Below, in pieces: positions 9,952 through 49,373 of a DNA stretch of 64,000 nt. The position numbers and the translations under genes are program-made. Numbering within the stretch: the first letter of the stretch is position 1; each line of letters opens with the position of its first letter. Below the pieces are notes generated by a model. The model did not search any database, had not been told where the DNA came from, and saw only the letters and a program-made list of their open reading frames with translations. This stretch comes from a virus: IMG/VR virus record IMGVR_UViG_3300013103_000001, positions 5,424 through 69,423 of that record; one strand, given 5' to 3'.

Positions 9952-10413
9952 TCAGTCCATTAATTTTAAGAAAATAGGGCTGTGAGAAAGCTTAGTCGAG
10001 AGGTATCTCTCTTCATCCTCAGACAAGAGGCCCATACGCACTAGAGCGTCAAGATCTGGGCTTTCTTTGATCTCCCATTCGTCCATCCAATCTAGTTTTT
10101 GGTCCACAAACATAGGTTCGACAGTAGAAAAATTATACTCGAATATTTTCATGAACTCCTTTGTGTCTTTGTCTAACTTTGCCCACTCTTCCTTGAATTT
10201 TTCAGGGAATTTTTCTGCACTTTGTAAGAGCTCGTCTAACTCACAATTAAATAACTTCGTACCTCCTGAGTACGCAGTCACAGTACCATCTGCTTCTATA
10301 GCAAACTTGAGGTCGTTTATTTCTTTCTCTAATGCGGACCTCGCTAAGTTTATTACTGAGAGAACTGGCTTTATACTAGCTTCTAAGTTCTTTGTACGGC
10401 TCGGCTTTGACAT
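9952..10413 (-). CDS. Hypothetical protein with MSKP leader (MSKPSRTK)
   Basis: ATG 10413 preceded by GTGA RBS; wHTH-like C-terminus (LDALVRMGLLSE). Confidence 0.7.
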   Translation of the reverse strand: MSKPSRTKNLEASIKPVLSVINLARSALEKEINDLKFAIEADGTVTAYSGGTKLFNCELDELLQSAEKFPEKFKEEWAKLDKDTKEFMKIFEYNFSTVEPMFVDQKLDWMDEWEIKESPDLDALVRMGLLSEDEERYLSTKLSHSPIFLKLMD

Positions 10414-10514
10414 TTTAATCACTTTATATGTTTTATGATATAAAGCAATTAATAAATCTATCTCAAAAAAAAGAATTTGGAGCTCGCGCCAAATGTATGT
10501 AGGGGGATTCTGAG

Positions 10515-10680
10515 TATAAAAATAAAAAAAGAGGGAGGATTTCGGACGCGAGTTTCTCCTTGAGCGCAGTCTTTCGAGCTAGAGCGCTCGCATGACCTTT
10601 GTGAGGCGCTTTCGTCCCAGAGCCTGCGTGCAGCTAACGACAAAAAAAAGAAGTGATACACGCAAGTCTCTTTCATATTA
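10515..10680 (-). ncRNA. Candidate structured non-coding RNA
   Basis: Downstream of a TGTTCAAAAA+TATA promoter; several complementary stems; ends in a U-tract; the overlapping ORF is not protein-like. Confidence 0.35.
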
Positions 10681-10699
10681 ATCAATACACAACTGGTCA

Positions 10700-10728
10700 T
10701 ATATAAACTTTTCTATCTTTTTTGAACA
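10700..10728 (-). promoter_or_regulatory. Promoter: TGTTCAAAAAAG, purine-rich BRE, TTTATATA
   Basis: Minus strand reads TGTTCAAAAAAGATAGAAAAGTTTATATA. Confidence 0.7.
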
Positions 10729-10751
10729 GATAAGAGCCAAAAATGCGGCTT

Positions 10752-11768
10752 TCAAGCAGTGGCCTCCGATTTTGAGCGCGGTATCCCGGCTATTGGAGGA
10801 GCGGACCCTAGCTCTTTTTTCAAGCGGAGCACAGCGCGACTCAAATCGAGGGGTCTGGTTATCGGGAAGCGCTTTTCGAGTTTTTGGAGCGGGTCTATTA
10901 CTATTAAATTAGTGTTAGGGACAGTTATAAGAAATGGGAACGGCCCTTTATGTTTTTGGAGAGGAGGAGAGCGAGTTATTCGAGTTTTCAAAGAGTCTTT
11001 CAAGAGCAAGAGGAAATAGTCAATTCCTTTGAATTTAGGGAGAGACCCTAAGAGAGAGAAAAGGGAGAGAAATTTTTTAGGAGAGTATATATCTTTGATG
11101 CATATTGAAGTCGAGCTATCGAAAAAGAAACTTAGTCTAGAGTCGATAACCCTAGCTAGGTCTGTGAGGACAGAGTGCAGAGTCGAGGTGTCTTCACTCT
11201 CGAACTCTACCTTTAAGAACGGCGAGAAGTGCTTATCGAAATAAAAATGAGGAAAGCTGATCTTAAAGCGCTCGCATAGCTCTGCTCTCTCTTTAGAGTA
11301 TATCTTTTTATTTAGTTTAGAGATATACTCGTCGAGCTCGTCGTGCACGTCGACTGCTCCTCTCGCTAACTCTAAGAGCGCGTTTTGAGGAGCGTTGACA
11401 GCAGGAGTCTTCGCAGCAGCTTTGCCCGCAGCGTAGAAGAACTCAGGTTTCGTCCTCTGGGAAGCGTCGCTTAAAGCTATCTTGAATATCCAAAAAATAG
11501 AGATAAATTGCAGAGTAGGGACTTCTGGACGAGGGACATAAGCTGTGTCGTTTTTGTCGAAAATGAGCTCGACTTTGACTGAGTCTCTACTTTCGTCTTT
11601 AAAGACCTCTTCGACTCGAGACATTAAGCGACTTATCGCGAGCTCTCTTACTTGTGTGAAGTCCCTTTTGTCTACTAGAGCGACGAGTTCTTTGCCTCTT
11701 ATCACTAGTTTAACGAGGTGTGACTCTAAGACTTCAGGGATTAGAGCTTTGTCTAGTTCGACCATCAC
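10752..11768 (-). CDS. Hypothetical protein, distant member of the 17490-23960 paralog family
   Basis: IKDIYSPKKFLSLFSLLGSLPKFKGI matches the family module (e.g. LENPFLPSVFNRLCVGLGFLPKIEGI). Confidence 0.65.
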   Translation of the reverse strand: MMVELDKALIPEVLESHLVKLVIRGKELVALVDKRDFTQVRELAISRLMSRVEEVFKDESRDSVKVELIFDKNDTAYVPRPEVPTLQFISIFWIFKIALSDASQRTKPEFFYAAGKAAAKTPAVNAPQNALLELARGAVDVHDELDEYISKLNKKIYSKERAELCERFKISFPHFYFDKHFSPFLKVEFESEDTSTLHSVLTDLARVIDSRLSFFFDSSTSICIKDIYSPKKFLSLFSLLGSLPKFKGIDYFLLLLKDSLKTRITRSPPLQKHKGPFPFLITVPNTNLIVIDPLQKLEKRFPITRPLDLSRAVLRLKKELGSAPPIAGIPRSKSEATA

Positions 11769-12064
11769 CTAAAAGACACTCCAACGTCGTACAAAGTCTT
11801 GTCAGAGGGTTTAGGGTAAATAATTATATACTCAGTCAAAATACCGTATTTTTTTGCGTCCTCTGGCTCTACTAAGACGTAAAGTTCCTTTATTTTGCCT
11901 TTAAAATCGGCAGTGTGACTCGTGAGGACTCCTTTTACTGAAATCCCTGGAGAGAGCTCTACTATTACTTTGTTAGTCGGACAGCTGTCGAGAGCTGTTT
12001 CTATAAGAGGGATCGAAGCTTTCTCCTTTCGTGGAGAGGAGCGAGATTTTTTTGGTCTAGACAT
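11765..12064 (-). CDS. Small protein with MSRP leader, possible Sm/LSm-like fold
   Basis: MSRPKKSRSSPRKEK leader; KVIVELSPGISVKGVL resembles the Sm1 motif. Confidence 0.55.
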   Translation of the reverse strand: MSRPKKSRSSPRKEKASIPLIETALDSCPTNKVIVELSPGISVKGVLTSHTADFKGKIKELYVLVEPEDAKKYGILTEYIIIYPKPSDKTLYDVGVSFR

Positions 12065-16894: not shown

Positions 16895-17509
16895 ATGAAA
16901 ATAGTGATCTACGGGCGAGTCTCTACTGACTTGCAAGACATAAAGCCTCAAATAGAAGAGCTGAAAGAGTACGCTTTAAAATTAACAGATGAAAAAAACA
17001 TCAAAATTTTATACGACATAGAGAGCGGAGCAAACTCAAAAAGAAAAGATTATGAGAGCTTAAAAGAGCTCGTCTTCAAAAAAAAAGTGGACTTAGTCTT
17101 AGTTTGGAAACTGGATAGGCTCGCGAGAAACGTAAGAGAGCTGATAGATTTTTTCACTTTATTAGACGAAAACGGAGTTAATATAAAAATCTATACCCAA
17201 AACATTGACACTACGACTCCTACAGGTAAATTAATGTTCTATATAGTCGCTGCTTTCGCTGAGTTTGAGAGGGACTTGATCCGAGAGCGGATCAAATTGG
17301 GGATGCGGAGGACTGAAAAAAAAGTCGGGAGAGCGAGAATTTCAGACGATACGATAAAACAAATATATTTGCTGAGAAAAAAAGGGAAGAGCTACTCTCA
17401 AATAACAAAAGAACTCGAAGTCTCAAAAGGGACTGTTGCTCGATATATTAGGGCAATAGAAACAATTAATATGGTCGTTAGGTTTTTGTTTAGACCTCTG
17501 AATCTATAA
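16895..17509 (+). CDS. Serine recombinase (resolvase/invertase) with C-terminal HTH
   Basis: MKIVIYGRVST (catalytic Ser), Q, SG, VWKLDRLAR, IDTTTPTGKLMF, AEFER, HTH SYSQITKELEVSKGTVARY. Confidence 0.95.
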   Translation: MKIVIYGRVSTDLQDIKPQIEELKEYALKLTDEKNIKILYDIESGANSKRKDYESLKELVFKKKVDLVLVWKLDRLARNVRELIDFFTLLDENGVNIKIYTQNIDTTTPTGKLMFYIVAAFAEFERDLIRERIKLGMRRTEKKVGRARISDDTIKQIYLLRKKGKSYSQITKELEVSKGTVARYIRAIETINMVVRFLFRPLNL

Positions 17510-18989
17510 CGAGGCACGCTACTTCTTCTTTAGGGAGGTTTTTCAATTTTGGGACTCTCCCTAACAGTTCTGAGAGCGCTTTGAAATTTCTTGGGTGTAA
17601 AGGGAAGGACTTATCGTCGTCTAGTGACTTTTCTAAACCATAACTTTCGAGCTGCGACTGGAGTATAGGGTCGTTTACGAAGATAGCGTTGTTCTCTGGG
17701 CGGTAGTTTAATTTTTCTTCGATTTGAGCATAGTTTAAATCAGGAGGGCCGAGCCTCGCGTTCGCGTCAGCTATTATTGCACCAGGTGACTGGGTAACTT
17801 GTCCTATTAACTTTAGTTTTTTGAAGAGCTTTTTGTGGTCCATTCCAATTATTGGAGTGACGTAGCCTAGAGTTTTGAAGAGCCTCAAGAGGATATGTAG
17901 GTAATTAGTATTACCGACAACGGTGTACGGGACTTCAGGCTTAAGTATTATCGGGACTTCTTTCAAGTCAATAGAACAGTCTTTGAGTAAAATAAGGTTA
18001 ACTGTAGTAGCTACTTTGTCTTCTTTTCCTCCAAAACTAGCTGCGACTAGCTTTATGGGAGGGTCGGGGTTGTAAGGAATTTTCGTCCAAGCTGCTGCTT
18101 TTTTGATTACTTCTTCTTTGTCGACTTTCTCCATCACGTCCCGATTTGAGTCGCAGAAAAGCGTGAAACGAGCAGTCTTTTTCTCTGGTCGGAACCCAGA
18201 CTCTTTACAGAACGGGGCGAAGACTTCAGGTCGGTGGAAGTTAGGGACGAATAGACTGTCTTTGGAGTTGAGAGTGAAACACACGTCTTTGTATTGGTAG
18301 AACCTCTCGAGGAAGTCTACGAACTCTTCTTTCTTAGTCTTTTTGAACTTTATTGCTGCTGCGTTGAGTGCTGGGATGTACACTGTGACCTTTTCTATGT
18401 CATTTCCTAGAGCGTAGTCAGACTCAATTAAGCTTTCGAACGTCTTCAACCTCTCGTGGAGAGGAGCGGTGAACTGAAAAAAACAAGGAAAGTACGCCAC
18501 AGAGCTGGGTACGTAGCGTAGAGCGTTTAAAATAGCGGCGAGAGTATCAGGAGATGCAGGGATGTCAAAAATTGACTTTATTTTTTTCCCTAGGTACGAA
18601 GATATCCGGTAGGTCAGGTACCTTACTTTTTCTTCGGGGAGAGGAGGGTCGCCTTCTATAGGCTCGACGATGAAGTCTTCGCCGTTATACTCTATGGTAA
18701 TGCGAGACAAGTAGTCGTCGCCGTCTTCGAAGAGCCTGCTTAAAGACTCTCCGACTGCTACGTTGAGTTTTTTTTCCATCATATATTTATTAGCAGGTTT
18801 TTCTAATTTGAGGTATACTTCTCTTTTTTTGAAGTCTAATACTTCTTCGAAAGGAGGGAACCCTACTCTCGCGAGGTCTTCTCTCGTGAGAGAAGAGACT
18901 GCTCCCACTATATTTTTGTCGTGTATTTCAGTTGGCTTTTTAGTCTGTTTTTTTGAGCTTTTTATCTTTTTGGAGGAAGGTTTTGACAT
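17490..18989 (-). CDS. ~500-aa paralog A with MSKP leader
   Basis: MSKPSSKKIKSSKK; C-terminal LGRVPKLKNLPKEEVACL shared with the next two genes. Confidence 0.8.
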   Translation of the reverse strand: MSKPSSKKIKSSKKQTKKPTEIHDKNIVGAVSSLTREDLARVGFPPFEEVLDFKKREVYLKLEKPANKYMMEKKLNVAVGESLSRLFEDGDDYLSRITIEYNGEDFIVEPIEGDPPLPEEKVRYLTYRISSYLGKKIKSIFDIPASPDTLAAILNALRYVPSSVAYFPCFFQFTAPLHERLKTFESLIESDYALGNDIEKVTVYIPALNAAAIKFKKTKKEEFVDFLERFYQYKDVCFTLNSKDSLFVPNFHRPEVFAPFCKESGFRPEKKTARFTLFCDSNRDVMEKVDKEEVIKKAAAWTKIPYNPDPPIKLVAASFGGKEDKVATTVNLILLKDCSIDLKEVPIILKPEVPYTVVGNTNYLHILLRLFKTLGYVTPIIGMDHKKLFKKLKLIGQVTQSPGAIIADANARLGPPDLNYAQIEEKLNYRPENNAIFVNDPILQSQLESYGLEKSLDDDKSFPLHPRNFKALSELLGRVPKLKNLPKEEVACLVIDSEV

Positions 18990-18995: not shown

Positions 18996-20501
18996 TCACC
19001 AATATCCCATTGTGAGGCACGCTATCTCCTCTTTTGAGAGCCCTTCGACTTCAGGGACTGTTTGGAGCACTTCACACAGCTTATTAAAGTCTGATGGGTT
19101 CGCCCACAAATTTCTCTTAGAGCTGATATAGCCTCTTGCTATCAATTCGTTTTTAACTTTATCTTCAATAATTATTTTGCCGTTGCTATATTTGACTTTG
19201 GAGCCGCGGTATTCCTCGTCTGGGAGGCCGAACGACTGCTTAGTCCTCTCGATGACGTCAGTAGGGTCTTCGACTATGTCGACTAGGTTCGAGAGTATGC
19301 TGTGCATCCTGCGATAAGGGACTCCTGTGATTGCTTTCGGGAACCCCAAGACTTTAAAAGTCTTGTAGAGGACTAATAAGTTAGACATACCGCTGACTTC
19401 GAGGAGCTTCCCGTTTTTTTGCGAACAAGAGACTCCTTCTTTCCGGAGGAGCGTCTCGACCTCTTCTTTGTCGCGCTGGTCTATGTCGTCGAGGTAGACG
19501 AAAAAGTGGTCGTTCACGTTGCTATTTAAGAGGTGGATGTCTGTCTTCCAATATGAAAAATCCGCGACAGGTTCGCGAAAGTTAACAGCGAAATTCGCTA
19601 GAGCTGAAGTTATATTTCGTATCTTTTTAGCCCTGAGCGTTTTTCGTTCTTCTCTAGCGAGGTCCTGTAGTCTAGACTCCCCCATAGAGATGAGAGGAGT
19701 CAACTCGTTTACAGGGACAAAACCTGCTGCAGCACAGAACGTGAGGAACACTTTAGGGTCTTGGACATCAGGGACAATCACGTGAGAGTCTGTCACAAAG
19801 AGCTCTACGTCGCTCCCAAATGAGAGCTCTTCGAGCATGTTAGAGAGCTCCCCACCTATTGGCTCTTTGGACTTTAGTATTAAAGCTAGCCTACCATCTC
19901 GACTGACTGTGGAGTGTACGTAGTCGAAGAGGTGTTTAGACCCTCTCGAGAATTTGTGTTCTTTGACGAACTCGCGCGCTTTTTCGACGAACTCTTTAGT
20001 CTCTTTCTCGATGTCCAAGAGGTCTCTAATCAAGCTGGGGTCCACGCCATTTGGTACGCAGTCTAGACCATACATAATAGCAGGGAGAGCACGTCGGCTA
20101 TAAGGGATTTCGTCTAAGTCAACTTTTTTAGTATTTAGAGCTGTAGCGATCTTTCTCTCTACTGTGAGTCTTTTAGGGTCTATCATCTTCGCACTTACTT
20201 TGAAAGCGTCTTTCTCTTTGTCGTAAGTTATAGACGCTTTTTTTTCTAAATAGAAATAGTCAGTAAAAAACTTTTGGTTGAGGTCTCTTACGATGTTCTC
20301 TAAAATAGTTTTTTTAACCAAGTCTTTAGAGTTAAGAAAGGACTTTAGAAAAATTTTCTTCTCTTTGAGGTCTATTCCTAAAGAGCCCACAAAGGGAGAG
20401 AGGCCTAAGTACGAGACTGCGTCTATGATATCTCTATCTCTCACAATTATAGGTTTTTTATTCTCTTTTTTAGGCGGTTTATAACTCTTCGGTCTAGACA
20501 T
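18996..20501 (-). CDS. ~500-aa paralog B with MSRP leader
   Basis: True start MSRPKSYKPPKK at 20501 (GTGA RBS); C-terminal VPEVEGLSKEEIACL. Confidence 0.8.
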   Translation of the reverse strand: MSRPKSYKPPKKENKKPIIVRDRDIIDAVSYLGLSPFVGSLGIDLKEKKIFLKSFLNSKDLVKKTILENIVRDLNQKFFTDYFYLEKKASITYDKEKDAFKVSAKMIDPKRLTVERKIATALNTKKVDLDEIPYSRRALPAIMYGLDCVPNGVDPSLIRDLLDIEKETKEFVEKAREFVKEHKFSRGSKHLFDYVHSTVSRDGRLALILKSKEPIGGELSNMLEELSFGSDVELFVTDSHVIVPDVQDPKVFLTFCAAAGFVPVNELTPLISMGESRLQDLAREERKTLRAKKIRNITSALANFAVNFREPVADFSYWKTDIHLLNSNVNDHFFVYLDDIDQRDKEEVETLLRKEGVSCSQKNGKLLEVSGMSNLLVLYKTFKVLGFPKAITGVPYRRMHSILSNLVDIVEDPTDVIERTKQSFGLPDEEYRGSKVKYSNGKIIIEDKVKNELIARGYISSKRNLWANPSDFNKLCEVLQTVPEVEGLSKEEIACLTMGYW

Positions 20502-20506: not shown

Positions 20507-22006
20507 TCACTTTTGTTTTATTTCGAGTAAAAGGCAAGCGAGTTCTTCTTTTGGGAGGCCATTGACCTCAGGGACTCTCCCGAGGACCTCGCACATAGCT
20601 CTAAGGTTTTCAGGAGTCAAGTCCTCGACCATAGTAGCAGAAGGGTTCGCTGCTCCGAGGATTTTGTCCAGCCCTCTCACGATTATTTTGTCGCTCTTAG
20701 AGTCGTACTCTGCAATGACTCCTTTGTACTTCGGGTTAGGAGGGCCAAAAGAGTTAGACACTCTATCTATCACTCCGTCTGGGTCCGCTACCGCGTTTAA
20801 AATCGAGGAAACAAGTCCTAAAGTCTTTGAGTAAGGGACCCCGATTATAGGCTTGACTATCCCGAGTGCTTTGTAAACTTTGTAGAGCGTAGAAGGGCTG
20901 TCGAGGTCTCTAACCTCGAGGAAGTTGTAGGACCAGTCTGTGTGTTGAATAGTACCAAAGTTGTCGACTGCTGTTTTTATCTTGTCTTTTACAGATGGAG
21001 GTTCGGTATCTGCTATGTATATTATGAAAGAATCTTTATTAGTACGTATAAAAGCTATGCCATCTTCATACGGAGCGAGCTCAGGGCTCCCAATTTTTTG
21101 TCTTATTTTTTCGAGTTTAGAGTAAAGTTCCTTTTTTCTTTCCTTCAATTTTTTTATGTCTGGAGTCTTGAACTCTTCGAACGCAAAGCTCGGCAAGAAC
21201 CTATTATTTGGGATAAAACCGAAAACTGCGCAGAACGCGACGAAAGTGTCTATCTCGTCTGCACTATAAAAAGAGATGCTTCGGCCTGGAGGGTAAAAGT
21301 ACCAGTCGTTGCCGTAGCCCATAAGGGAGAGATTTGTGAGAGAAGAGAGGACACTCCTGTTAGTTTTTTTCAACTTGAAGTCCATTGTCTTTTTCAAGAA
21401 ATAATACTGGTCGAAAGAAAAATTTTCTACGAAGCTTCGCTTGTCTCCAGAAAGTCTCGCGTTTTCGATAAACTGTTCGACTCTCGATTTGAAAGTTTTT
21501 GTCTTTTTCGCGACGGCTATGAGGTATTTAGAGAGGTCTGGGTCGAACGCTTTAGGGACGCAGTCCATCGCAGTAAAGACAGCAGCGAGGAGCCTCGGAG
21601 ACGGCTTAGTCCTGATCACAGAGGCTTTTGTCTTGTGGAGAGCTGACCGGATCTCTCTCGACATCCTTTGTTCGTCGTGTAGCGTCAAGTTAGGTATAGC
21701 TAAGGAGACTGTGTCAGACTTTTTGTCGTAGGTGAGCGTCGCGCGGTCTTTGAAGTCGAAAGTGTCTTTGAACACCTCTTCGTTGAGTTTGTCTGCGATG
21801 TTTCTCGTCAGGATTTCTTTTAGAGCAGCTTTGTTAGGCACTTTCGATTTGAGGAAAAATTTTTTGCTCTTGAGGTCGATTACAGGTGAAACTACAGGAG
21901 ACGTGAAGTCGAGAGCTTCGAAAGCGTCTATAATCTCTTTGTCGTCTATCAAGACTTCTCTCTCAGTTTTCTCTCTTTTTTTCGACTTGCGGCTCGGCTT
22001 CGACAT
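20507..22006 (-). CDS. ~500-aa paralog C with MSKP leader
   Basis: Start MSKPSRKSKKREK at 22006; C-terminal LGRVPEVNGLPKEELACL. Confidence 0.8.
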   Translation of the reverse strand: MSKPSRKSKKREKTEREVLIDDKEIIDAFEALDFTSPVVSPVIDLKSKKFFLKSKVPNKAALKEILTRNIADKLNEEVFKDTFDFKDRATLTYDKKSDTVSLAIPNLTLHDEQRMSREIRSALHKTKASVIRTKPSPRLLAAVFTAMDCVPKAFDPDLSKYLIAVAKKTKTFKSRVEQFIENARLSGDKRSFVENFSFDQYYFLKKTMDFKLKKTNRSVLSSLTNLSLMGYGNDWYFYPPGRSISFYSADEIDTFVAFCAVFGFIPNNRFLPSFAFEEFKTPDIKKLKERKKELYSKLEKIRQKIGSPELAPYEDGIAFIRTNKDSFIIYIADTEPPSVKDKIKTAVDNFGTIQHTDWSYNFLEVRDLDSPSTLYKVYKALGIVKPIIGVPYSKTLGLVSSILNAVADPDGVIDRVSNSFGPPNPKYKGVIAEYDSKSDKIIVRGLDKILGAANPSATMVEDLTPENLRAMCEVLGRVPEVNGLPKEELACLLLEIKQK

Positions 22007-22014: not shown

Positions 22015-22677
22015 TCACTTTTTGTAGTACGTGTTTATAGTCTTCTTTACTTTAGACTCTAAATAGCTCGTGTCTACTTTTTCAATTTTTGGGAAAAAAC
22101 CTAGACCTTTACATAATTTGTTAAGGGCGCTCGGCTTGAAAATGTTTTCAATCCTCCACCTCCTGAGGTCTCGGTCATATGTCCCGTTAGTTGGGCTGTA
22201 CCTAAACTCTCCAAAGAAGTTAAATAAGTCCCAATTATAGTCTGGGAGTAGCTTGCTTACGTAGAGGACGTCTATCTCTTTGCCTGCAGGCGTCTTAGTT
22301 TTTTCGTACCAGAACCTCAACTTTCGCCTCCACTCGTCCGAGTAAGGTCTTTTCTTTATTAATTTCCTAAATTCAGAAATGACTGGGCTCTGGTAGAAGC
22401 GGTCGTCAATAACATCCTGTACAGAGCTCCCTTCGAGGATAGCTTTAGCTACTTCTGGGAGGATAGCAGAGACAGAAGGGTCTCCTTCAAATTGTATCTT
22501 AGTATGCATTTGTTTTTTCTCTAAGTCTACGTGATAGTCTATCTCAGTCACATCGATGGAGAGTGCTCGTTCTATCAGTCTTTTAAATCCTTTTGGGACG
22601 TAGAACGGGACTGACTCTGAGACGAGAGCTTTCTTTTTCTTTCCTTTCCGGACTGACTTAGTTGGTTTAGACATCAT
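22015..22677 (-). CDS. ~220-aa paralog D with MSKP leader
   Basis: MSKPTKSVRKGKKKK; YDRDLRRWRIENIFKPSALNKLCKGLGFFPKI. Confidence 0.8.
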   Translation of the reverse strand: MMSKPTKSVRKGKKKKALVSESVPFYVPKGFKRLIERALSIDVTEIDYHVDLEKKQMHTKIQFEGDPSVSAILPEVAKAILEGSSVQDVIDDRFYQSPVISEFRKLIKKRPYSDEWRRKLRFWYEKTKTPAGKEIDVLYVSKLLPDYNWDLFNFFGEFRYSPTNGTYDRDLRRWRIENIFKPSALNKLCKGLGFFPKIEKVDTSYLESKVKKTINTYYKK

Positions 22678-23354
22678 TAAACTTTTTTCTCTTTATAATA
22701 TGTACTTAAGACTCTTTTTACTTTGCGTTCTAAATAGGAGGGGCTTATACCTTCGATTTTAGGGAGGAACCCGAGGCCTACACATAGCCTGTTAAATACA
22801 CTAGGTAAGAAGGGGTTTTCTAGAGTCCAACTTGTAGTGTTTTCGTCATATGTAGCCTGAGTTTTTTTCCAACCTACAAACCGGGACATAAAAGCTTTAA
22901 AGGGTTCTAAAAAATCCCATTTTTTAGGCGCAGTTACAATAAGGGTGTCTCTAAAGCCTCCATTCATTTTGACAGGCTTGTATTTAAACCTCACGCGGCG
23001 CTCTGCTATGTCAGTTATATAATTTCTCTTTAACAACTTTCGGTATTCAGCGAGAATAGGGCTAGACTCTTGAGAGTAATAACTGCTCATAACGTGGCCA
23101 ACAGGACGCCCGTCAATGATGAGCTTGATCGCTCTGGGGAGGAAACTCAAGACCCCAGGGTCTCCTTCGAACTCTACATCAGTATATATCCTCTTGTCTT
23201 CTAAGTCTATGTGCTGGTCCATTTTCTTTATTTTAATGCCGAACTCCTTTTCTAGCGTCTCTTTGAGTTCTTCTGGGATATAGTAGCCTATAGCTCCAGA
23301 GAGGACGCTCGTTTCTTTCTTTTCCTTCTTAATTTTTTTCGACGGTTTAGACAT
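22677..23354 (-). CDS. ~225-aa paralog E with MSKP leader
   Basis: MSKPSKKIKKEKK; YDENTTSWTLENPFLPSVFNRLCVGLGFLPKI. Confidence 0.8.
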   Translation of the reverse strand: MSKPSKKIKKEKKETSVLSGAIGYYIPEELKETLEKEFGIKIKKMDQHIDLEDKRIYTDVEFEGDPGVLSFLPRAIKLIIDGRPVGHVMSSYYSQESSPILAEYRKLLKRNYITDIAERRVRFKYKPVKMNGGFRDTLIVTAPKKWDFLEPFKAFMSRFVGWKKTQATYDENTTSWTLENPFLPSVFNRLCVGLGFLPKIEGISPSYLERKVKRVLSTYYKEKKV

Positions 23355-23360: not shown

Positions 23361-23960
23361 TTACTCCAAAATTTTTTCTATAATACTTTCGAGGGCTTCT
23401 TCAGATAGCCCATCGATTTTCGGGATAAACCCAAGACCTTTACATAATTTATCAAAAATATCTGGTTTGCGGAAGTTGTCTATTTTCCACGTTTTATCAC
23501 TAGGGTCCCACCTTCTTTTAGTCTCCTTCCAAGGGAGGGACTTTATAAAGATATTAAACTCAGGGTCGTACCTGCTCGGGAGAGTACCTCCTATAGCGAG
23601 GACGTCCGCGTACTTGTTAGGAGCTACTTCGACTCTTAGAGACTTGAAAAATAACCTCCGCTCCCAATCGTCTGACGAGTCGTTCTTTTCTAAAGACACT
23701 GAGTATTCTTTAATAGGAGAAGTGGAAGCAATTGCTTCGATCGAGTTTACAAGAGTGTTCGAGACTGGGACGTCGCCTCTAAACTCGATAGTAGTATACA
23801 TTTTTCTTTCAGCTAAGTTTATACACTCGTATATTTTCAATATTTTAATGCCTAGAATTCTCTCTATTCTTTTTTTAGCTTTGTCTGAGATAGAGAGAGG
23901 GACGTTAACAGAGCTCGTATCTTTTCCTTTTTCTTTAACTTTTCGCGACGGCTTAGACAT
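23361..23960 (-). CDS. ~200-aa paralog F with MSKP leader
   Basis: MSKPSRKVKEKGK; WDPSDKTWKIDNFRKPDIFDKLCKGLGFIPKI. Confidence 0.8.
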   Translation of the reverse strand: MSKPSRKVKEKGKDTSSVNVPLSISDKAKKRIERILGIKILKIYECINLAERKMYTTIEFRGDVPVSNTLVNSIEAIASTSPIKEYSVSLEKNDSSDDWERRLFFKSLRVEVAPNKYADVLAIGGTLPSRYDPEFNIFIKSLPWKETKRRWDPSDKTWKIDNFRKPDIFDKLCKGLGFIPKIDGLSEEALESIIEKILE

Positions 23961-24228
23961 ACCCTACCACCAGCACGTAAATTATATATAGTAGAAACGA
24001 GAGGAAGAGGACGATAGACGCTACTAGAAACTTCCTCGAGTTTAACCTAACTGAGACTACACAAAAGAACAAAAATAAAACTAATAGAAAGACTAGGACT
24101 AAAAGTGTAAGAAAGGGGTCATTGTAGTAGCTATCTATGATGTTAAATATAGAGAATATCTGAAAATAATCTAGAACTATTTCCAAACTTGCAAAAATAA
24201 AAAAGAGCAAAAAGATTATAGCTATCAT
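23953..24228 (-). CDS. Small 3-TM membrane protein
   Basis: Three hydrophobic segments; coupled on both sides. Confidence 0.7.
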   Translation of the reverse strand: MIAIIFLLFFIFASLEIVLDYFQIFSIFNIIDSYYNDPFLTLLVLVFLLVLFLFFCVVSVRLNSRKFLVASIVLFLSFLLYIIYVLVVGYV

Positions 24229-24605
24229 TTTTTATTCCCTCCTTTAATAGTCAAAATGACTCGGGACATAGATACCCATTTTTTTCCTCTGTCAGTGAGT
24301 TCGTACCTAGTGTGTTTGTTTTCTCGCTTTCTCGTCACGAGCCCTTTGTCTGCGAGGCGAGCGAGGAGGTTATAGACTTGGTTCATGCTCTTGAAGTGCT
24401 CTCCCAAAGACTTAGCTACTCCTTTCGCTCTCGCTGGTTTTTTACTTAAGAACTTCAAAATTATCCCTCTTACGGAAGATGGGTCTATCCCAAAGAGAGA
24501 CTTTTCTAGATATCTTTTTTCTGCTTTTTTGACTTCTTCCTCAGTGAAAATATATTTTTTAATTTCTACATAATCTCGTTTCTTTTTTCTAGACGGCTGA
24601 CTCAT
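24225..24605 (-). CDS. Winged-helix (MarR/PadR-like) DNA-binding protein with MSQP leader
   Basis: Start MSQPSRKKKR at 24605 (GGTGGTG RBS); QVYNLLARLADKGLV...YELTDRGK. Confidence 0.8.
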   Translation of the reverse strand: MSQPSRKKKRDYVEIKKYIFTEEEVKKAEKRYLEKSLFGIDPSSVRGIILKFLSKKPARAKGVAKSLGEHFKSMNQVYNLLARLADKGLVTRKRENKHTRYELTDRGKKWVSMSRVILTIKGGNKK

Positions 24606-26551: not shown

Positions 26552-26580
26552 AGACTTTCCTCTTTAGAAAAAAAATAATG

Positions 26581-27147
26581 TTAAAACAGCGGAACTCCAA
26601 TAGAGGTGAACAGGAAGACAAAGAGAAACAATACTCCACCAGCAACTACAGTTTCAATTATTGCGGTAATTAAGTCATCAGTAGTGTCACTATAATATAT
26701 TGATATAACACCCCAAAGCAAAAGAATTCCAGGAATTGCTGAAATAATTACTTGAATTATTAACGATACATCTGCCATTGTCGTAGAAACTTGAGAAAGT
26801 CCCCATAAAGGTGGGAACGGGTAATCCGAAACGCCATAAGAAGTCAAGCCCATCATATCGAGGCCAGCGAAAACACTCGACATGACGATTACTGGGATGA
26901 GCATAGCGACTACCCCGTAGAGCAGGTATTTTAAGGTCCGCGCCATGCCATTTCTCGTTAAAGCGAACGAAAAAGCGTACATAAAAATTATTACCAGCGC
27001 ATAAGCCATGCGAGACCCTTCATCGACGAGGAGGTAACTAAACCACCCAAAAGTAACTTGCCCGACAAAGCAGACGCTCGTAATTATTGTCAAAACAATC
27101 CCAAAGATTTGTTTTAAAGAAATTCCAAGCATTCTCATTTCTATCAC
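26581..27147 (-). CDS. Membrane protein (~5 TM)
   Basis: Highly hydrophobic; probable start ATG 27138. Confidence 0.75.
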   Translation of the reverse strand: MIEMRMLGISLKQIFGIVLTIITSVCFVGQVTFGWFSYLLVDEGSRMAYALVIIFMYAFSFALTRNGMARTLKYLLYGVVAMLIPVIVMSSVFAGLDMMGLTSYGVSDYPFPPLWGLSQVSTTMADVSLIIQVIISAIPGILLLWGVISIYYSDTTDDLITAIIETVVAGGVLFLFVFLFTSIGVPLF

Positions 27148-27184
27148 ATCATTTGTATATTCATATTTTTGTGAATTTAGTTAT

Positions 27185-27391
27185 TTAAATGTTTCTCCGC
27201 TCGTTTTCTGAGAACTCTTCAGAGACTTTCTTCTCGAGCTCTTCAATAGCAGGTTCGAGGATCGAATGAATTAACTCAGTCGTCGTCATCTTGTCACCTT
27301 TGATGCTATAATACGAGGCTATATACCTCAGCCTATTGAGGAGGTCTGACTTTATCCTAAACGTAGTCATGTCTTTCGTCATTTTATTCAC
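27185..27391 (-). CDS. Ribbon-helix-helix DNA-binding protein
   Basis: TTFRIKSDLLNRLRYIA...TTTELIHSILE; divergent from the GT gene across a TATA-rich spacer. Confidence 0.75.
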   Translation of the reverse strand: MNKMTKDMTTFRIKSDLLNRLRYIASYYSIKGDKMTTTELIHSILEPAIEELEKKVSEEFSENERRNI

Positions 27392-32468: not shown

Positions 32469-32473
32469 AAAAG

Positions 32474-46489: not shown

Positions 46490-46501
46490 TTTTTAATCAC
46501 C

Positions 46502-47389
46502 TCAAAAGTCGAGAGTGGGCTCAATTACAGCTATCCTGTCGAGAATTTTCCCGAAGCTAGGCTTCACAATCTCTTCATTGAAATTAAGCCCTGCTCTCGA
46601 ACCGCGGACAGTCCCGTACCTAGTCGCGACACCACCAACGTATTTGATGTTCATTTCTAAAATCAAGTCAAGCCAGTAGCCTGTTGAGTAATGCCAAACT
46701 GGAGCGTATGCTCCAGTCTTCTGTAGGCGTTGTTTCCCAGTATCTGTGGGGAGGACATCCCATACCTCTTTCACTTTTGCAGTCACTATAACGTTACAGT
46801 GGACCCTTCGGATCAATTTCATGAGAGACTCCCACTTGTCGTTCCTCCAATACCAATCGGAAGGCCTGACGTCAGCTTGGAACCCTGTCTTTTTAGGCCC
46901 CAATTTTAAGACTTCTAAGCGGAGGTAAGAGTTAACCCAGCTATAGACGTCAGAGAGAGAGTCTATAACGATGGTCCCTTCCTTTTCGTCTGCTAATTCA
47001 ACTAAAGTGTCCCAAAAAAGTTCGAAGGACTTGCACGGGTCGACTTCTTTTTCATCGTTTTCGACATATACAGGGCACACTCTCACTTTCTTTGCCTTAA
47101 ACTGTTTTTTATAAAAACGTGGGAGCCAGCTCGCAGCATTCTCTGTATCGATGATAGACGTCACGACTCCTGGAGGGATTTTAGGGCCAACTACGGAATC
47201 AGTCCACTTTTCTACGAGAGAAGCAGAAGCAGAAAATATGCTTTTCCCGACTTTTTCTCTACCGATGACTGCCATCTTAATTCCAGCAGTTTTGGTTATA
47301 GCTGCTTTATCATAATACGTCCATTCTCCTCTTATTTTCTCAGAAATTTTTTCAACTGGTTCTCTAGCGGCTTGCTCCATCCAACCCAT
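46502..47389 (-). CDS. RecA-fold ATPase (AAA_24/Sak4-like recombinase)
   Basis: GREKVGKS, IDTE, IVIDSLS, NVIVTAK; next to the SSB. Confidence 0.75.
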   Translation of the reverse strand: MGWMEQAAREPVEKISEKIRGEWTYYDKAAITKTAGIKMAVIGREKVGKSIFSASASLVEKWTDSVVGPKIPPGVVTSIIDTENAASWLPRFYKKQFKAKKVRVCPVYVENDEKEVDPCKSFELFWDTLVELADEKEGTIVIDSLSDVYSWVNSYLRLEVLKLGPKKTGFQADVRPSDWYWRNDKWESLMKLIRRVHCNVIVTAKVKEVWDVLPTDTGKQRLQKTGAYAPVWHYSTGYWLDLILEMNIKYVGGVATRYGTVRGSRAGLNFNEEIVKPSFGKILDRIAVIEPTLDF

Positions 47390-48507
47390 CAGTCAAAATC
47401 CTCCTCTGTTAACTGAATGACTTCATCACGACTTTCCTCAACTTTCTCTGGCTCGAGGTCCTCTTTTTTTATTTCTTGGACTTCTGGTGCTTTGATTAGA
47501 TATTGTGGGTAGGCGTATATTCCGAGGACACTTATGACTATTTCATCAGGGTTGCTTTTTGTCCCTTTTGAAGTCTGCCCGCAGACCATCAGCTTACTCC
47601 CACTAGAGAAGTTCGGTTTGATAAACTCTGGGACGTAGCACTTCACTGGAGGTAAGTCTTTCTCGTCTAACTTTTCGTCATCAAGCCACATAGTCCAGCT
47701 CCCAAAAGGACTTATTGAAGGGTCTAGAGACAGGACAAATGCGTCGAAGACTACGAACCGATTAAAGTCGTCTTTAAATGCGTTGTGCCACTCGGCCAGC
47801 ATGTCTATTTTACATTTGTGGTCTTTTAACGCTGTAGAGAAAAGAGTTTTTGGAGGAGGGACTTCTATATTTTTTGCAGGTTGAAATTCTGTTAACGCTG
47901 AGTAATTTAGGATAATCGGGTTTGACGTCACGTCGCTTTCAATTGCAAAAAACTCAACAGGTACAAATGTTGGGATCTTTGGAAGTATATAATCAGAGCT
48001 CTTAGGGTCCGCTGGACTACGAGATATGATGAGGACAAAAGGCTTCCAGTCCAATTTATCTGTAGACTTTAGTGGAGAGCGGCTAGCTACTCCGAAGACT
48101 TTGAAGAGAAAGTTCTCTTTTAGTGGGAGCCCATAGTTCCTGTTTTTAGTCCCTGTCGAGAAGAACTCGACGTTGTCTAGAGGAGTCCCGTCTTCGTCTG
48201 TGTACCCTAAACTTATTGCTTTCTGAGGGTCTCTCTTGAAGAGCTGTTTTGCAGCTTTCCAGCGTTTGTTATTAGTGTCAAAAGGCTTCGATCGACCAAA
48301 GACTACTCCACAGTATCGAGCAGCAGTAGAAATAGCTCGACGCCTGTATTTTGCGCGGACTTGCTGCCTCGCGACTTTTTCCTGGTCTTCTTCTGAGAGG
48401 TCGGGGAAAAGGCTTTTTGTGTCTTCCAGTGTTTTTAAGTACTCTTTTTTGAGAGCTTCGATCGGCTCTTTGAACTTTTCACTCCATTTTTTTAAAAAAT
48501 CGTTCAT
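47389..48507 (-). CDS. OB-fold single-stranded DNA-binding (RPA-like) protein
   Basis: Probable start MNDFLKK (48507); OB-like strands (LMVCGQT, ISVLGIY); acidic tail LTEEDFD. Confidence 0.65.
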   Translation of the reverse strand: MNDFLKKWSEKFKEPIEALKKEYLKTLEDTKSLFPDLSEEDQEKVARQQVRAKYRRRAISTAARYCGVVFGRSKPFDTNNKRWKAAKQLFKRDPQKAISLGYTDEDGTPLDNVEFFSTGTKNRNYGLPLKENFLFKVFGVASRSPLKSTDKLDWKPFVLIISRSPADPKSSDYILPKIPTFVPVEFFAIESDVTSNPIILNYSALTEFQPAKNIEVPPPKTLFSTALKDHKCKIDMLAEWHNAFKDDFNRFVVFDAFVLSLDPSISPFGSWTMWLDDEKLDEKDLPPVKCYVPEFIKPNFSSGSKLMVCGQTSKGTKSNPDEIVISVLGIYAYPQYLIKAPEVQEIKKEDLEPEKVEESRDEVIQLTEEDFD

Positions 48508-48614
48508 ATATATATAACCTCTACGAAATTTGGTAATAAAAAGTAGAATATAAAAATATAAAAATATTCTTTTGTGCCTCACCACAGTCAAGGAAAAAAA
48601 AATATGAGGAGCCT

Positions 48615-49373
48615 TCAGGACTCGCCGCCAGGCACCCGCTTCTTCCGCTCTTCTGGAGGCATCTTCTTCCAAGCTTCACTGCCACGCTTACTGAGTTTCT
48701 TGATCCTCTTTTTCGCAGCTTTTCTCGCAGCTTTTTGAACTTTGCTAGGGTGAGACTTTCTATACTTCAACTTACCTACAAGGTCCATAAACTGGTCCCA
48801 AGAAATCCCTTTATACCCGTGGTTTTTCCTGCACTTAGAAATCGCTTTGACAGCTAGCCTCATCTCTTTCTCGTTCAAAAGAGGGACGTTCTTAGGAGTT
48901 AGCTTCTCGTTTAAAGCATATTTGAACTTTTTGTGATAGGCCCAGAGGGTCGCTAAAACGAGGCGTAGTCTGAGAGTCCTCGCGTTTACACCTCTTTCTG
49001 AGAGGACCCCTCGTTCGTAATCTTCTTCGATATTTTCGAGAGTGTCTAACACCTCTGAGAGGTGGGAAAAGCGGCCGACAGGGTCTAAGTCCTCGACGTC
49101 CCTGCCGAGGTAGAGGTCTTCTCCTTTCGGGACCCACGCGACTCTGCCTTTGTAGTCTATAGTAGGCCTCTCGACTTCGCTCTTCGCGAGGAGCTCTTCA
49201 TAAGTATAGCCTGGAAAAGCGTCTTGCCAGTCGTCTGTTATCCACGTCGGAGGCATCCTAAGTTGAGCAGCAGAAACAGTCCGGCCAAACTCGGAAGGGA
49301 GTTTTACTTTAGTTTGAGCGAGCTCTTTCCACTTTTTTCGAGCTGCTTTAATTCCTTTTTTCGGCCTAGACAT
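48615..49373 (-). CDS. Basic protein with MSRP leader
   Basis: MSRPKKGIKAARKK; K/R-rich termini; GTGA RBS. Confidence 0.75.
   Translation of the reverse strand: MSRPKKGIKAARKKWKELAQTKVKLPSEFGRTVSAAQLRMPPTWITDDWQDAFPGYTYEELLAKSEVERPTIDYKGRVAWVPKGEDLYLGRDVEDLDPVGRFSHLSEVLDTLENIEEDYERGVLSERGVNARTLRLRLVLATLWAYHKKFKYALNEKLTPKNVPLLNEKEMRLAVKAISKCRKNHGYKGISWDQFMDLVGKLKYRKSHPSKVQKAARKAAKKRIKKLSKRGSEAWKKMPPEERKKRVPGGES

What the first reader, a model, noticed from the sequence alone, without database searches (positions are those of the whole stretch)
9952..49373. Twelve proteins share an N-terminal M-S-[KRQ]-P-[STK]-basic leader: candidate sorting or virion-loading signal
Seen: once starts are set at the RBS-supported codon, 12 genes begin MSKPSRTK (10413), MSRPKKSR (12064), MSKPSSKK (18989), MSRPKSYK (20501), MSKPSRKS (22006), MSKPTKSV (22674), MSKPSKKI (23354), MSKPSRKV (23960), MSQPSRKK (24605), MSKPTRRS (GTG 32468), MSKPTSKK (34084) and MSRPKKGI (49373), each followed by a K/R-rich stretch. 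The bodies include unrelated folds (MoxR ATPase, VWA, winged helix, Sm-like, a paralog family), so common ancestry of whole genes cannot explain it. Codons vary (TCA/TCT/TCG/AGT/AGC for Ser), pointing to selection on the peptide. No replication, nucleotide-metabolism or membrane gene carries it. Established: T4 internal proteins use a short N-terminal capsid-targeting sequence, and the MoxR/VWA pair of Acidianus two-tailed virus are virion proteins. Inference: a dedicated address tag for packaging into the virion or delivery into the host. Alternatives are a DNA-binding arm, an N-acetylation/proteolysis signal, or an NLS-like P-K/R tag.
Basis: partly seen in the sequence, partly recalled or inferred. 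Interest (0 to 1): 0.92.

Follow-up and report, generated by a model that had tools for sequence, protein, structure and literature searches.

The report
Shared basic leader, Asgard-archaeon virus
Twelve soluble proteins of an uncultured virus that probably infects Asgard archaea all start with the same four or five amino acids followed by a lysine/arginine-rich arm; it looks like a common address or docking handle, but what it does is untested.

Summary
The window is most of a complete 69,423-bp virus record with 123-bp terminal repeats. Of about 66 genes, 12 start M-S-[K/R/Q]-P-[S/T/K] followed by a K/R/S/P-rich arm (P about 6e-28). Public gene calls give the same start for 11 of 12.

The bodies fall into 7 unrelated families. 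Six tagged genes form one paralog superfamily with no homologue outside this virus among 1.84 billion representative proteins.

Selection is on the peptide. Ser uses TCN and AGY codons, and Arg uses CGN in 10 of 20 cases. None of 13 membrane proteins and none of 15 replication or nucleotide-metabolism enzymes carries the tag.

The motif is not a host habit. A strict DNA pattern hits the virus 4 times, against 11 hits in 400 Asgard genomes, never more than one per genome. The likely host is an Asgard (Helarchaeota-like) archaeon, judged from NrdD (77-79% identity).

The function is not shown. I found no capsid, protease, close relative or RNA data. My best reading (0.4) is a polycationic handle that brings these proteins to viral DNA or membrane and into the particle. 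Rivals are a translation-enhancing MSK-type start, plain DNA-binding arms, and a processing signal.

The scan noted shared leaders on other archaeal virus-like elements before, but not this motif.

The parts
9952..10413 (-). 153-aa orphan protein, acidic body. Tag MSKPSRTK is encoded at 10390-10413.
   Evidence: SD GTGAT at -4. Exact sequence present in public gene calls. No Pfam, PHROG or PDB match that passes.
11765..12064 (-). 99-aa orphan protein. Tag MSRPKKSRSSPRKEK is encoded at 12020-12064.
   Evidence: SD GTGATC at -3. Present in public gene calls. No Pfam hit.
17490..18989 (-). Long paralog 1 (499 aa). Tag of 18 residues is encoded at 18936-18989.
   Evidence: SD GGTGAT at -5. Present in public gene calls.
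18996..20501 (-). Long paralog 2 (501 aa). MSRPK-type tag of 16 residues is encoded at 20454-20501.
   Evidence: The public call P0004 (501 aa) has the same start. An X1 contig covers the start.
20507..22006 (-). Long paralog 3 (499 aa). Tag MSKPSRKSKKREK is encoded at 21968-22006.
   Evidence: The public call P0001 (499 aa) has the same start.
22015..22674 (-). Short paralog 1 (219 aa). Tag of 15 residues is encoded at 22630-22674. An alternative start at 22677 would give MMSKP.
   Evidence: This exact sequence is not in the public collection. An X2 contig covers the start.
22677..23354 (-). Short paralog 2 (225 aa). Tag MSKPSKKIKKEKK is encoded at 23316-23354.
   Evidence: In the AF2 model, residues 1-13 have pLDDT below 50. 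Present in public gene calls.
23361..23960 (-). Short paralog 3 (199 aa). Tag MSKPSRKVKEKGK is encoded at 23922-23960.
   Evidence: Present in public gene calls on 3 contigs.
24225..24605 (-). 126-aa winged-helix (PadR/TrmB-like) protein. Tag MSQPSRKKKR is encoded at 24576-24605. Its ATG overlaps the upstream stop codon.
   Evidence: Pfam PadR 9.8e-7 and TrmB 4.9e-6.
30204..32468 (-). 754-aa protein with a C-terminal VWA domain. GTG start. Tag of 18 residues is encoded at 32415-32468.
   Evidence: Pfam VWA_2 1.1e-6. SD GGAGGT at -8. ENA calls the 754-aa form and JGI a 724-aa form.
32474..34084 (-). 536-aa MoxR-type AAA_5 ATPase. Tag MSKPTSKKTSQKREK is encoded at 34040-34084.
   Evidence: Pfam AAA_5 3.3e-19. 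PDB sequence matches: Midasin AAA 2e-30, NorQ/CbbQ 1e-11. The public call P0002 has the same start.
48615..49373 (-). 252-aa basic orphan protein (net +24), first gene of the replication operon. Tag MSRPKKGIKAARKKWK is encoded at 49326-49373.
   Evidence: SD GTGATC at -4. Present in public gene calls. No family or fold match.

Best explanation
The leader is a portable N-terminal module specific to this virus and selected at the protein level. It has two parts:
- a fixed cap, Met-Ser-[Lys/Arg/Gln]-Pro-[Ser/Thr/Lys];
- a further 4-14 residues of disordered arm rich in K, S, R and P.

The module gives seven unrelated families of soluble proteins one common polycationic handle. These families are a MoxR-type ATPase, its VWA neighbour, a winged-helix protein, a six-member orphan paralog family and three other orphans.

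I think the handle most likely brings these proteins to one polyanionic destination, either the viral DNA or the inner face of a viral membrane. They would then be gathered into the nucleoprotein core or particle.

The fixed cap would give all of them the same processed N-terminus (Met removed, Ser exposed) or the same docking epitope.

Shown: that the module exists, how significant it is, that selection acts on the peptide, that it is restricted to soluble non-enzyme proteins, and that it is absent from candidate host genomes.

Inferred: the destination, any receptor, N-terminal processing and presence in the particle.
For: - **Enrichment:** 12 of 66 genes, in 7 families, carry the leader.
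- **Peptide-level selection:** Ser uses both TCN and AGY codons. Arg in the tags is CGN in 10 of 20 cases against 33% genome-wide, so A-rich RNA is not what is kept.
- **Conservation in old paralogs:** paralogs only 24-38% identical keep M, S and P invariant and keep a basic arm whose sequence differs.
- **Composition:** the 158 tag residues are K 38%, S 19%, R 13% and P 10%, with no Asp and almost no hydrophobic residues. Residues 1-13 are disordered in the one usable model.
- **Distribution:** 0 of 13 membrane proteins and 0 of 15 annotated enzymes are tagged, P = 5.5e-4.
- **Not a shared domain:** the paralogs' N-domain profile does not hit the other six tagged proteins (E > 0.2).
- **Not a host habit (short pattern):** the short pattern gives 7 hits in the 69-kb virus, against 4 hits (11 for the controls) in four Asgard genomes totalling 14.8 Mb.
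- **Not a host habit (strict pattern):** the strict pattern gives 11 hits in 400 Asgard genomes, never 2 in one genome, with about 26 control hits. Only 5 are plausible gene starts, and 4 of those are one orthologous Zn-ribbon gene.
- **Precedent:** the MoxR-type ATPase p618 is a major virion component of ATV, and its VWA partner's homologue was detected in SMV1 virions (passages of PMC4124505).
Against: - I identified no capsid, portal, scaffold or maturation protease, so 'particle' has no anchor (Pfam on 60 of 66 proteins; PHROGs on 20).
- There is no conserved junction between tag and body that would mark a cleavage site.
- A winged-helix regulator and the first gene of the replication operon are odd virion cargo.
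- The 153-aa protein has only a short arm (+3) on an acidic body.
- The Pro codon is CCG or CCA in 11 of 12 tags, against 46% genome-wide (P about 0.001). mRNA around tagged starts is also less structured (median -4.2 against -7.5 kcal/mol, P = 0.017). An RNA- or translation-level component therefore cannot be excluded.
- I could examine no relative, so conservation of the tag across lineages is unknown.
- There are no RNA or proteome data.
Confidence: 0.4

Rival explanations
1. Expression device. M-S-K/R-P plus a Lys-rich, weakly structured 5' coding region is selected because it raises translation initiation or early elongation of a set of strongly expressed genes. On this reading the peptide has no role after synthesis.
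For: - In E. coli a nascent MSKIK or SK-x N-terminus raises protein production independently of codon usage (abstracts of PMC10192921 and bioRxiv 10.1101/2022.10.03.510712, seen in the listing).
- Tagged genes have weaker predicted structure from -20 to +40 (median -4.2 against -7.5 kcal/mol, P = 0.017) and higher A content (0.48 against 0.33).
- The Pro codon is biased to CCR in 11 of 12 tags.
Against: - Arg in the tags uses CGN in 10 of 20 cases, so A-richness itself is not favoured.
- The invariant Pro and an arm of 8-18 residues go beyond what the published tetrapeptide effect needs.
- A winged-helix regulator and a MoxR ATPase are not obvious high-expression genes.
- Candidate host genomes do not use this start.
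- The published effect was shown in bacteria, not archaea.
Confidence: 0.2
2. Plain nucleic-acid-binding arms. Each protein acts on DNA or RNA inside the infected cell (regulation, replication, genome compaction). The basic N-terminal arm simply adds non-specific affinity, as histone tails or H1-like tails do, and there is no sorting or packaging.
For: - The composition (K, S, R, P; no Asp) resembles known DNA-binding tails. That comparison is recalled, not computed here.
- One tagged protein is a winged helix.
- The 252-aa protein has net charge +24 and heads the replication operon.
- The paralogs have net charge +5 to +16.
Against: - Non-specific arms do not need an invariant M-S-x-P cap at residue 1, nor the strict pairing of K/Q at position 3 with S/T at position 5 (9 of 9) and of R at position 3 with K at position 5 (3 of 3; Fisher P = 0.0045).
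- None of the 15 annotated DNA enzymes (PolB, FEN1, ligase, helicase, UDG, nucleases and others) has the leader.
- MoxR-type ATPases are not DNA binders. ATV p618 does not bind viral DNA (passage of PMC4124505).
- The AT-hook core G-R-P is present in 0 of 12 tags.
Confidence: 0.2
3. Processing, modification or stability signal. The cap is read by an N-terminal enzyme (Met removal plus acetylation or methylation of Ser, or a protease that removes the leader) or sets the half-life. On this reading the arm is a propeptide.
For: - The motif sits strictly at residue 1, with a small residue after Met and a fixed Pro.
- Dedicated enzymes that read the first four residues exist for histones H4 and H2A. 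That is recalled, not checked here.
Against: - I found no protease, acetyltransferase or methyltransferase family in the 60 of 66 proteins scanned.
- There is no conserved tag-body junction.
- As I recall it, the N-terminal methyltransferase motif is X-P-K. The order here is S-K-P, so it does not fit.
Confidence: 0.1
4. NLS-type address read by a receptor. The leader concentrates proteins in a DNA-containing compartment or virus factory of the Asgard host.
For: - 8 of 12 tags contain K-[KR]-x-[KR] within 25 residues, against 1 of 54 untagged N-termini.
- The host is probably an Asgard archaeon.
Against: - No receptor was identified or searched for.
- To my knowledge no compartment is known in cultured Asgard archaea.
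- Any polybasic arm will match the loose NLS consensus.
Confidence: 0.05
5. Chance or annotation artefact.
For: Eight of the 12 ORFs have other in-frame starts upstream.
Against: - P is about 6e-28 for genes and about 2e-15 for families.
- SD support is present at 11 of 12 starts.
- Independent public gene calls agree for 11 of 12.
- The same DNA occurs in two studies.
Confidence: 0.01

Closest known systems
Capsid targeting sequence (CTS) of phage T4 internal proteins
   Same: It is a short N-terminal leader, the only thing shared by otherwise diverse proteins of one virus, and it addresses them to one place. [quoted passage not shown]
   Different: - I found no HK97-type head, scaffold or prohead protease here, and no cleavage junction.
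- The leader here is polybasic and is followed by a long basic arm.
- The host is archaeal.
- Packaging is not shown.
MoxR-type ATPase p618 and VWA protein p892 of Acidianus two-tailed virus (and their SMV1 homologues)
   Same: An adjacent AAA_5 MoxR-type ATPase and VWA protein in a large archaeal virus without a recognisable icosahedral capsid. ATV p618 is a major virion component (PMC4124505).
   Different: - There is no detectable specific similarity. tblastn of the ATPase against 50,697 phage and archaeal-virus records listed no Acidianus virus among the named organism groups or the 15 rows shown.
- Nothing in the passages I read mentions an N-terminal leader on the ATV proteins.
Translation-enhancing nascent MSKIK / SK-x N-terminal peptides (E. 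coli)
   Same: They begin M-S-K directly at the start, and the effect lies at the peptide level rather than the codon level (abstracts).
   Different: - It is an engineering observation in bacteria.
- It needs no Pro at position 4, has no long basic arm, and is not known as a natural shared leader.
Classical monopartite nuclear localisation signal / histone-like basic tails
   Same: K-[KR]-x-[KR] clusters occur in 8 of 12 tags, with a disordered composition rich in K, S, P and R.
   Different: - There is no known receptor or compartment in the host.
- An NLS is not tied to residue 1 and has no fixed cap.
Shared leaders noted earlier in this scan on other archaeal virus-like elements (e1-3281549, e1-3261720, e1-6073244, e1-5542323)
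   Same: One short N-terminal peptide sits on many unrelated proteins of an archaeal virus. One note concerns an Asgard-linked element with basic tags.
   Different: - These are AI notes that I did not check.
- They concern other genomes and other leader sequences.
- No look-alike of this window or this leader is in the index.

Membership tests
T4-type capsid targeting sequence system | One short N-terminal leader shared by otherwise unrelated proteins of the same virus | tested here: met
   12 genes in 7 body families.
T4-type capsid targeting sequence system | Leader removed by a head maturation protease at a conserved junction | tested here: inconclusive
   No protease family in 60 of 66 proteins scanned against Pfam or in 20 scanned against PHROGs. 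No common junction motif in the 12 N-termini.
T4-type capsid targeting sequence system | HK97-fold head with a scaffolding core that receives the cargo | tested here: inconclusive
   No capsid, portal or terminase family hit in the same scans. Orphan proteins could hide one.
T4-type capsid targeting sequence system | Tagged proteins present inside the particle | not testable with these tools
   No isolate and no proteome.
Sec/Tat-type signal peptide | Basic n-region followed by a hydrophobic h-region | tested here: not met
   0 of 12 tagged proteins have a hydrophobic 19-residue window. The tags have almost no hydrophobic residues.
AT-hook | Core G-R-P flanked by basic residues | tested here: not met
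   G-R-P occurs in 0 of 12 tags. The motif definition is recalled.
Classical monopartite NLS | K-[KR]-x-[KR] cluster | tested here: met
   8 of 12 tags against 1 of 54 untagged N-termini. The consensus is loose and is recalled.
Classical monopartite NLS | Importin-type receptor and a bounded compartment in the host | not tested
   I did not search host genomes for karyopherins.
MoxR AAA+ / VWA pair | AAA_5 (MoxR-class) ATPase next to a VWA-domain protein | tested here: met
   AAA_5 3.3e-19. VWA_2 1.1e-6 and VWA 1.5e-6. The genes are adjacent at 30204-34084.
Translation-enhancing SKIK-type N-terminal peptide | Ser-Lys-x directly after Met raises yield independently of codons | not testable with these tools
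   The sequence fits in 8 of 12 tags (M-S-K; the others are 3 M-S-R and 1 M-S-Q). The effect needs an expression assay (abstracts).

The most novel reading that the evidence does not exclude
The leader is a true address label read by a receptor in an Asgard-archaeon infection. It would be an NLS-like N-terminal signal that concentrates a defined set of viral proteins in a DNA-containing virus factory or in the assembling, capsid-less, membrane-rich particle. That would be a protein-sorting code in the closest prokaryotic relatives of eukaryotes that is independent of Sec and Tat.
Probability: 0.07. Interest if true: 0.95.

Novelty: new variant of a known kind. Interest (0 to 1): 0.68.

Why it matters
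Portable leaders that address unrelated proteins are well known for secretion and for T4 head cargo. I found no paper describing one in an archaeal virus. My searches were:
- 'archaeal virus' + 'conserved N-terminal' + 'unrelated proteins' + 'targeting';
- 'MSKPS';
- passages of two Asgard-virus papers.

Here the signal is unusually clean. It is one fixed cap, present on about a fifth of the genes, and absent from enzymes, membrane proteins and 400 Asgard genomes.

The virus has no recognisable capsid and probably infects Asgard archaea. If the leader marks particle or genome-associated proteins, it would give a sequence-only way to pick out the structural proteome of such orphan viruses. It would also give a small peptide to test as a cargo tag. 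If it is instead a translation device, it would be a natural counterpart of the engineered MSKIK tag. Either outcome can be tested with peptides and reporters.

Tried and rejected
**Relatives**
- The search for related loci with the MoxR protein in IMG/VR found nothing.
- PolB in IMG/VR and in metagenomes gave only relatives at 25-33% identity.
- tblastn of PolB against phage records gave halovirus HF1/HF2-type polymerases at about 26% as the best hits. The same search with MoxR gave only 28-32% partial hits.
- A word-based search with long paralog 3 returned only itself. With MoxR it returned itself and one unrelated 37% partial hit without a leader.
- A HMMER profile of the three long paralogs against 1.84 billion representatives gave 3 hits, all from this virus.
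- The IMG/VR scan for ATGTCNAARCCNTCNMGNAAR gave 71 loci with one hit each. Four different loci (a fifth, L072, repeats L035's two ORFs) had an MS[KRQ]P ORF of 60 aa or more with a basic arm, and none looked like a relative.
- dCTP deaminase against genome contigs gave nothing.
- The ATPase alignment in IMG/VR gave nothing.
- About 240 kb around 12 distant ATPase homologues in Asgard genomes held no MS[KRQ]P start.
- Contigs carrying NrdD at 70-79% share no other gene with this virus.

**Folds**
- The AF2 model of short paralog 2 (pLDDT 76.3) gave no match: Foldseek PDB best E 2.6e-3, BFVD best 1.5e-3, VIA-align wide best Z 5.9 on generic alpha/beta domains.
- The AF2 model of long paralog 3 had pLDDT 43.7 and I did not use it.
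- The ESM Atlas had no usable hit for the 252-aa protein (TM <= 0.31).
- PDB sequence searches with the 252-, 99-, 153- and 754-aa proteins gave nothing that passes on its own. One RSV F row at 4e-5 had 0 passing stretches, and I treat it as a low-complexity match.

**Expression and binding**
- No RNA holder was listed.
- Contigs of two DNA runs showed 8 single-letter differences, none within a tag.
- I did not use complex prediction, because I had no candidate receptor to name.

**Earlier scan notes**
- Look-ups by relatives and by sequence gave nothing.

**Rejected readings**
- A shared N-domain does not explain the leader.
- A leaderless-promoter or DNA repeat does not explain it either: the upstream sequences differ apart from the SD.

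**Gaps**
- Supplementary tables of the Asgard-virus papers were not available and could hold N-terminal data.

Full report
**What the window is.** The window is bases 5424-69423 of a 69,423-bp virus record that IMG/VR classes as having direct terminal repeats. I found an exact 123-bp repeat at both ends, and CheckV completeness is given as 100. A simple ORF-plus-Shine-Dalgarno gene call gives 66 genes, nearly all on the minus strand. They are preceded by GGTGAT/GGAGG-type ribosome-binding sites.

**Gene content.** Pfam and PHROGs identify an archaeal-type replication and nucleotide set:
- PolB, FEN1 (XPG), primase large subunit, a PD-(D/E)XK nuclease and ERCC4-HhH;
- an ATP-dependent ligase, a DEAD helicase with HhH, UDG and a serine resolvase;
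- dCTP deaminase, a dNMP kinase-deaminase fusion, a U32 protein, SurE and an AAA_24 protein;
- anaerobic NrdD, which lies outside the window.

No capsid, portal, terminase or protease family was hit in the 60 of 66 proteins scanned against Pfam or the 20 scanned against PHROGs. Thirteen proteins have predicted membrane segments. Three very large acidic proteins carry a signal-like N-terminus or a C-terminal anchor.

**Host.** The NrdD protein is 77-79% identical to genes on contigs of Helarchaeota and uncultured-archaeon bins. It is 55-57% identical to genes on long Promethearchaeota (Asgard) contigs. All but one of the 60 confirmed loci have titles naming Asgard lineages or 'uncultured archaeon'; the exception (L099) is binned under a bacterial name. 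Those contigs share no other gene with the virus, so NrdD reads as a gene of Asgard origin rather than a marker of related viruses. Asgard genes seen use the same AGTGAT-type ribosome-binding site.

I take an Asgard, Helarchaeota-like host as likely, not proven.

A preprint on Helarchaeota-linked viruses describes a similar gene content: PolB near haloarchaeal myoviruses, ERCC4-HhH, an ATP-dependent ligase, a VWA protein and glycosyltransferases. It also lists genes that I did not find, such as E1-like enzymes, PrimPol and a tail-sheath-like protein (passages of bioRxiv 10.1101/2021.07.29.454249). The passages I read do not mention a shared leader. I did not try to match records.

**The observation.**
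- In six frames of the whole genome, only 13 of 4,828 start-like codons are followed by S-[KRQ]-P. Twelve are these genes.
- From proteome composition the chance is 4.7e-4 per protein. That gives about 6e-28 for 12 of 66 genes, and about 2e-15 when counted as 7 families of 61.
- Eleven of the 12 starts have an SD match, and the twelfth abuts the upstream stop.
- Public gene calls hold exactly these N-termini for 11 of 12.
- Near-identical DNA covering four of the starts occurs in contigs of two runs from two studies.

**How many independent cases.** All-against-all BLASTP links the three ~500-aa proteins (24-29% identity) and the three ~200-aa proteins (32-38%). Profiles of their N-domain and C-terminal module hit all six, so they form one superfamily.

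The N-domain profile does not hit the other six tagged proteins (E > 0.2). The leader is therefore not just the front of a shared domain.

The other bodies are an AAA_5 MoxR-type ATPase, a VWA protein, a PadR/TrmB winged helix and three orphans of 153, 99 and 252 aa. That makes seven families. I could not confirm the 'Sm-like' label for the 99-aa protein.

**Level of selection.**
- Ser after Met is TCT x6, TCA x3, TCG, AGT and AGC, close to genome usage.
- Arg in the tags is CGN in 10 of 20 cases, against 33% genome-wide, so A-rich RNA is not what is being kept.
- Paralogs that have diverged to about 25-38% identity keep M, S and P invariant. They also keep a basic arm whose sequence differs.

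These three points argue for selection on the peptide. Two observations leave room for an RNA or translation component. The Pro codon is CCG or CCA in 11 of 12 tags, against 46% in the genome (P about 0.001). The region from -20 to +40 also folds less stably in tagged genes (median -4.2 against -7.5 kcal/mol, P = 0.017).

**Anatomy of the leader.** The cap is M-S-[K x8, R x3, Q x1]-P-[S x6, T x3, K x3]. K or Q at position 3 always goes with S or T at position 5 (9 of 9). R at position 3 always goes with K at position 5 (3 of 3, in three different families; Fisher P = 0.0045).

The arm runs to residue 8-18. The 158 tag residues are K 38%, S 19%, R 13% and P 10%, with no Asp and almost no hydrophobic residues. 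Residues 1-13 are disordered in the one usable model. I see no common junction between arm and body.

**Who carries it.** No protein with a predicted membrane segment carries it (0 of 13), and no annotated replication or nucleotide enzyme does (0 of 15). The chance that none of these 28 is tagged is 5.5e-4.

Nine of the 12 tagged genes lie between 17490 and 34084, where they are interleaved with membrane proteins and two glycosyltransferases. The 252-aa tagged gene opens the replication operon.

**Host control.**
- The pattern ATGTCNAARCCNWSN occurs 7 times in the virus. It occurs 4 times in total in four Asgard genomes (14.8 Mb), where the reversed control gives 11.
- The stricter pattern ATGTCNAARCCNWSNMRNAAR matches four of the twelve leaders by my reading of their codons; a slightly narrower form of the pattern gave 3 hits.
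- It occurs 0 times in five Asgard genomes.
- It occurs 11 times in 400 Asgard genomes, never twice in one genome, with about 26 control hits.
- Only five of those 11 are plausible gene starts, and four of the five are one orthologous 118-aa zinc-ribbon gene.

The leader is a property of this virus, not of Asgard N-termini in general. The true host is not known, so this control is indirect.

**Relatives.** The virus is nearly an orphan.
- The paralog family has no homologue outside this virus among 1.84 billion representative proteins.
- The MoxR protein has no close homologue.
- PolB is at most 25-33% identical to anything I fetched.

The only handle is the 549-aa Walker-A ATPase at 50058-51707. 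It has full-length homologues at 49% and 46% identity on contigs of 223 kb and 93 kb. More distant homologues (25-36%) occur in 12 of 400 Asgard genomes. About 240 kb around them has no MS[KRQ]P start. Whether the leader is conserved beyond this genome therefore remains untested.

**Reading.** I put 0.4 on a common polycationic handle that takes these proteins to viral DNA or membrane and into the particle.
- For it: the fixed cap, the restriction to soluble non-enzyme proteins, the absence from host genomes, and the ATV precedent of a virion-borne MoxR ATPase (PMC4124505).
- Against it: no capsid or protease to anchor it, odd cargo (a regulator and the first gene of the replication operon), and the RNA-level hints.

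The main rivals are:
- a translation-enhancing start like the engineered MSKIK/SK-x peptides (abstracts), at 0.2;
- plain DNA- or RNA-binding arms with no sorting role, at 0.2;
- a processing, modification or stability signal, at 0.1;
- an NLS-type address, at 0.05. It fits the loose consensus in 8 of 12 tags against 1 of 54 untagged N-termini, but it has no receptor or compartment behind it.

**Comparison and novelty.** The closest described system is the T4 capsid targeting sequence (PMC3012670). It shares the defining idea of one leader on diverse proteins. The other defining features (a cleaving protease, a scaffolded HK97 head, presence in particles) were either inconclusive or not testable here, so I do not file the leader as a member of that system. 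Signal peptides and AT-hooks are excluded by their defining features.

I found no paper describing such a leader in archaeal viruses (passages). Earlier notes of this scan report shared leaders with other sequences on other archaeal virus-like elements, one of them Asgard-linked. I did not check those notes. They suggest the phenomenon may be general.

I rate this a new variant of a known kind, with interest 0.68. The signal is strong and clean in an interesting host lineage, but it rests on a single genome with no functional evidence.

Noticed in passing
window 50058-51707 (-): A 549-aa protein with Walker A (GPPGTGKS). The ESM Atlas places it near viral AAA/Zot-like ATPases (TM by row up to 0.69). 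It has 46-49% full-length homologues on 223-kb and 93-kb metagenome contigs, and 25-36% homologues in 12 of 400 Asgard genomes. It is a candidate morphogenesis or packaging ATPase and the only link to relatives.
   Followed up: partly
genome 4110-6194 (-), partly window 1-771: Anaerobic ribonucleotide reductase NrdD with an ATP-cone (Pfam 6e-152). It is 77-79% identical to genes on Helarchaeota and uncultured-archaeon contigs. This is the basis for the host inference.
   Followed up: yes
window 10752-11768 (-): An untagged 338-aa protein directly downstream of the tagged 99-aa gene. It carries the C-terminal module of the paralog family (P..F..LC..LG..P.I.G; hmmsearch E 1.8e-5 in the 66-protein set).
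   Followed up: partly
the 12 leader codons (see parts): The Pro codon is CCG x7, CCA x4 and CCT x1, against 17%, 29% and 48% genome-wide. Position 3 K/Q pairs with position 5 S/T (9 of 9), and position 3 R pairs with position 5 K (3 of 3). Both are unexplained.
   Followed up: partly
window 54720-63998 (-); 1199-4243 (-); genome 2-3850 (-): Three very large acidic proteins (about 2,950-3,090 aa with net charge -107, 1,014 aa with -45, and 1,282 aa with -51). Each has a signal-like N-terminus or a C-terminal membrane anchor. They are probably surface or adhesion proteins. One has a CarboxypepD_reg domain.
   Followed up: no
window 32474-34084 (-): The best solved-structure sequence matches of the MoxR-type ATPase are AAA domains of eukaryotic Midasin/Rea1 (E 2e-30), ahead of NorQ/CbbQ (1e-11).
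   Followed up: no
L161-L164 (four Asgard genomes): A conserved 118-aa zinc-ribbon protein that starts MSKPSNK, with an AGTGATT ribosome-binding site. Apart from one other plausible start (L160), it is the only plausible cellular gene family to match the strict leader pattern in 400 Asgard genomes.
   Followed up: partly
window 26413 to 31795: One contig of run X1 joins these two places with 40 other letters between them (table 5c). It may be a variant lacking the glycosylation genes and the C-terminal half of the VWA gene, or it may be a mis-join.
   Followed up: no
L099 (genome-contig locus): An NrdD homologue (70-72% identity) is split by about 1.5 kb between residues 368 and 364-509. This may be an intein or an insertion. 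The contig is binned under a bacterial name.
   Followed up: no
window 24605-29921: A membrane and glycosylation block lies between the tagged genes. It holds a 648-aa protein with about 14 predicted membrane segments, a 185-aa protein with 5 membrane segments, a weak GT1-like gene and an RGP/GT75-like gene (Pfam 1e-23). None carries the leader.
   Followed up: no
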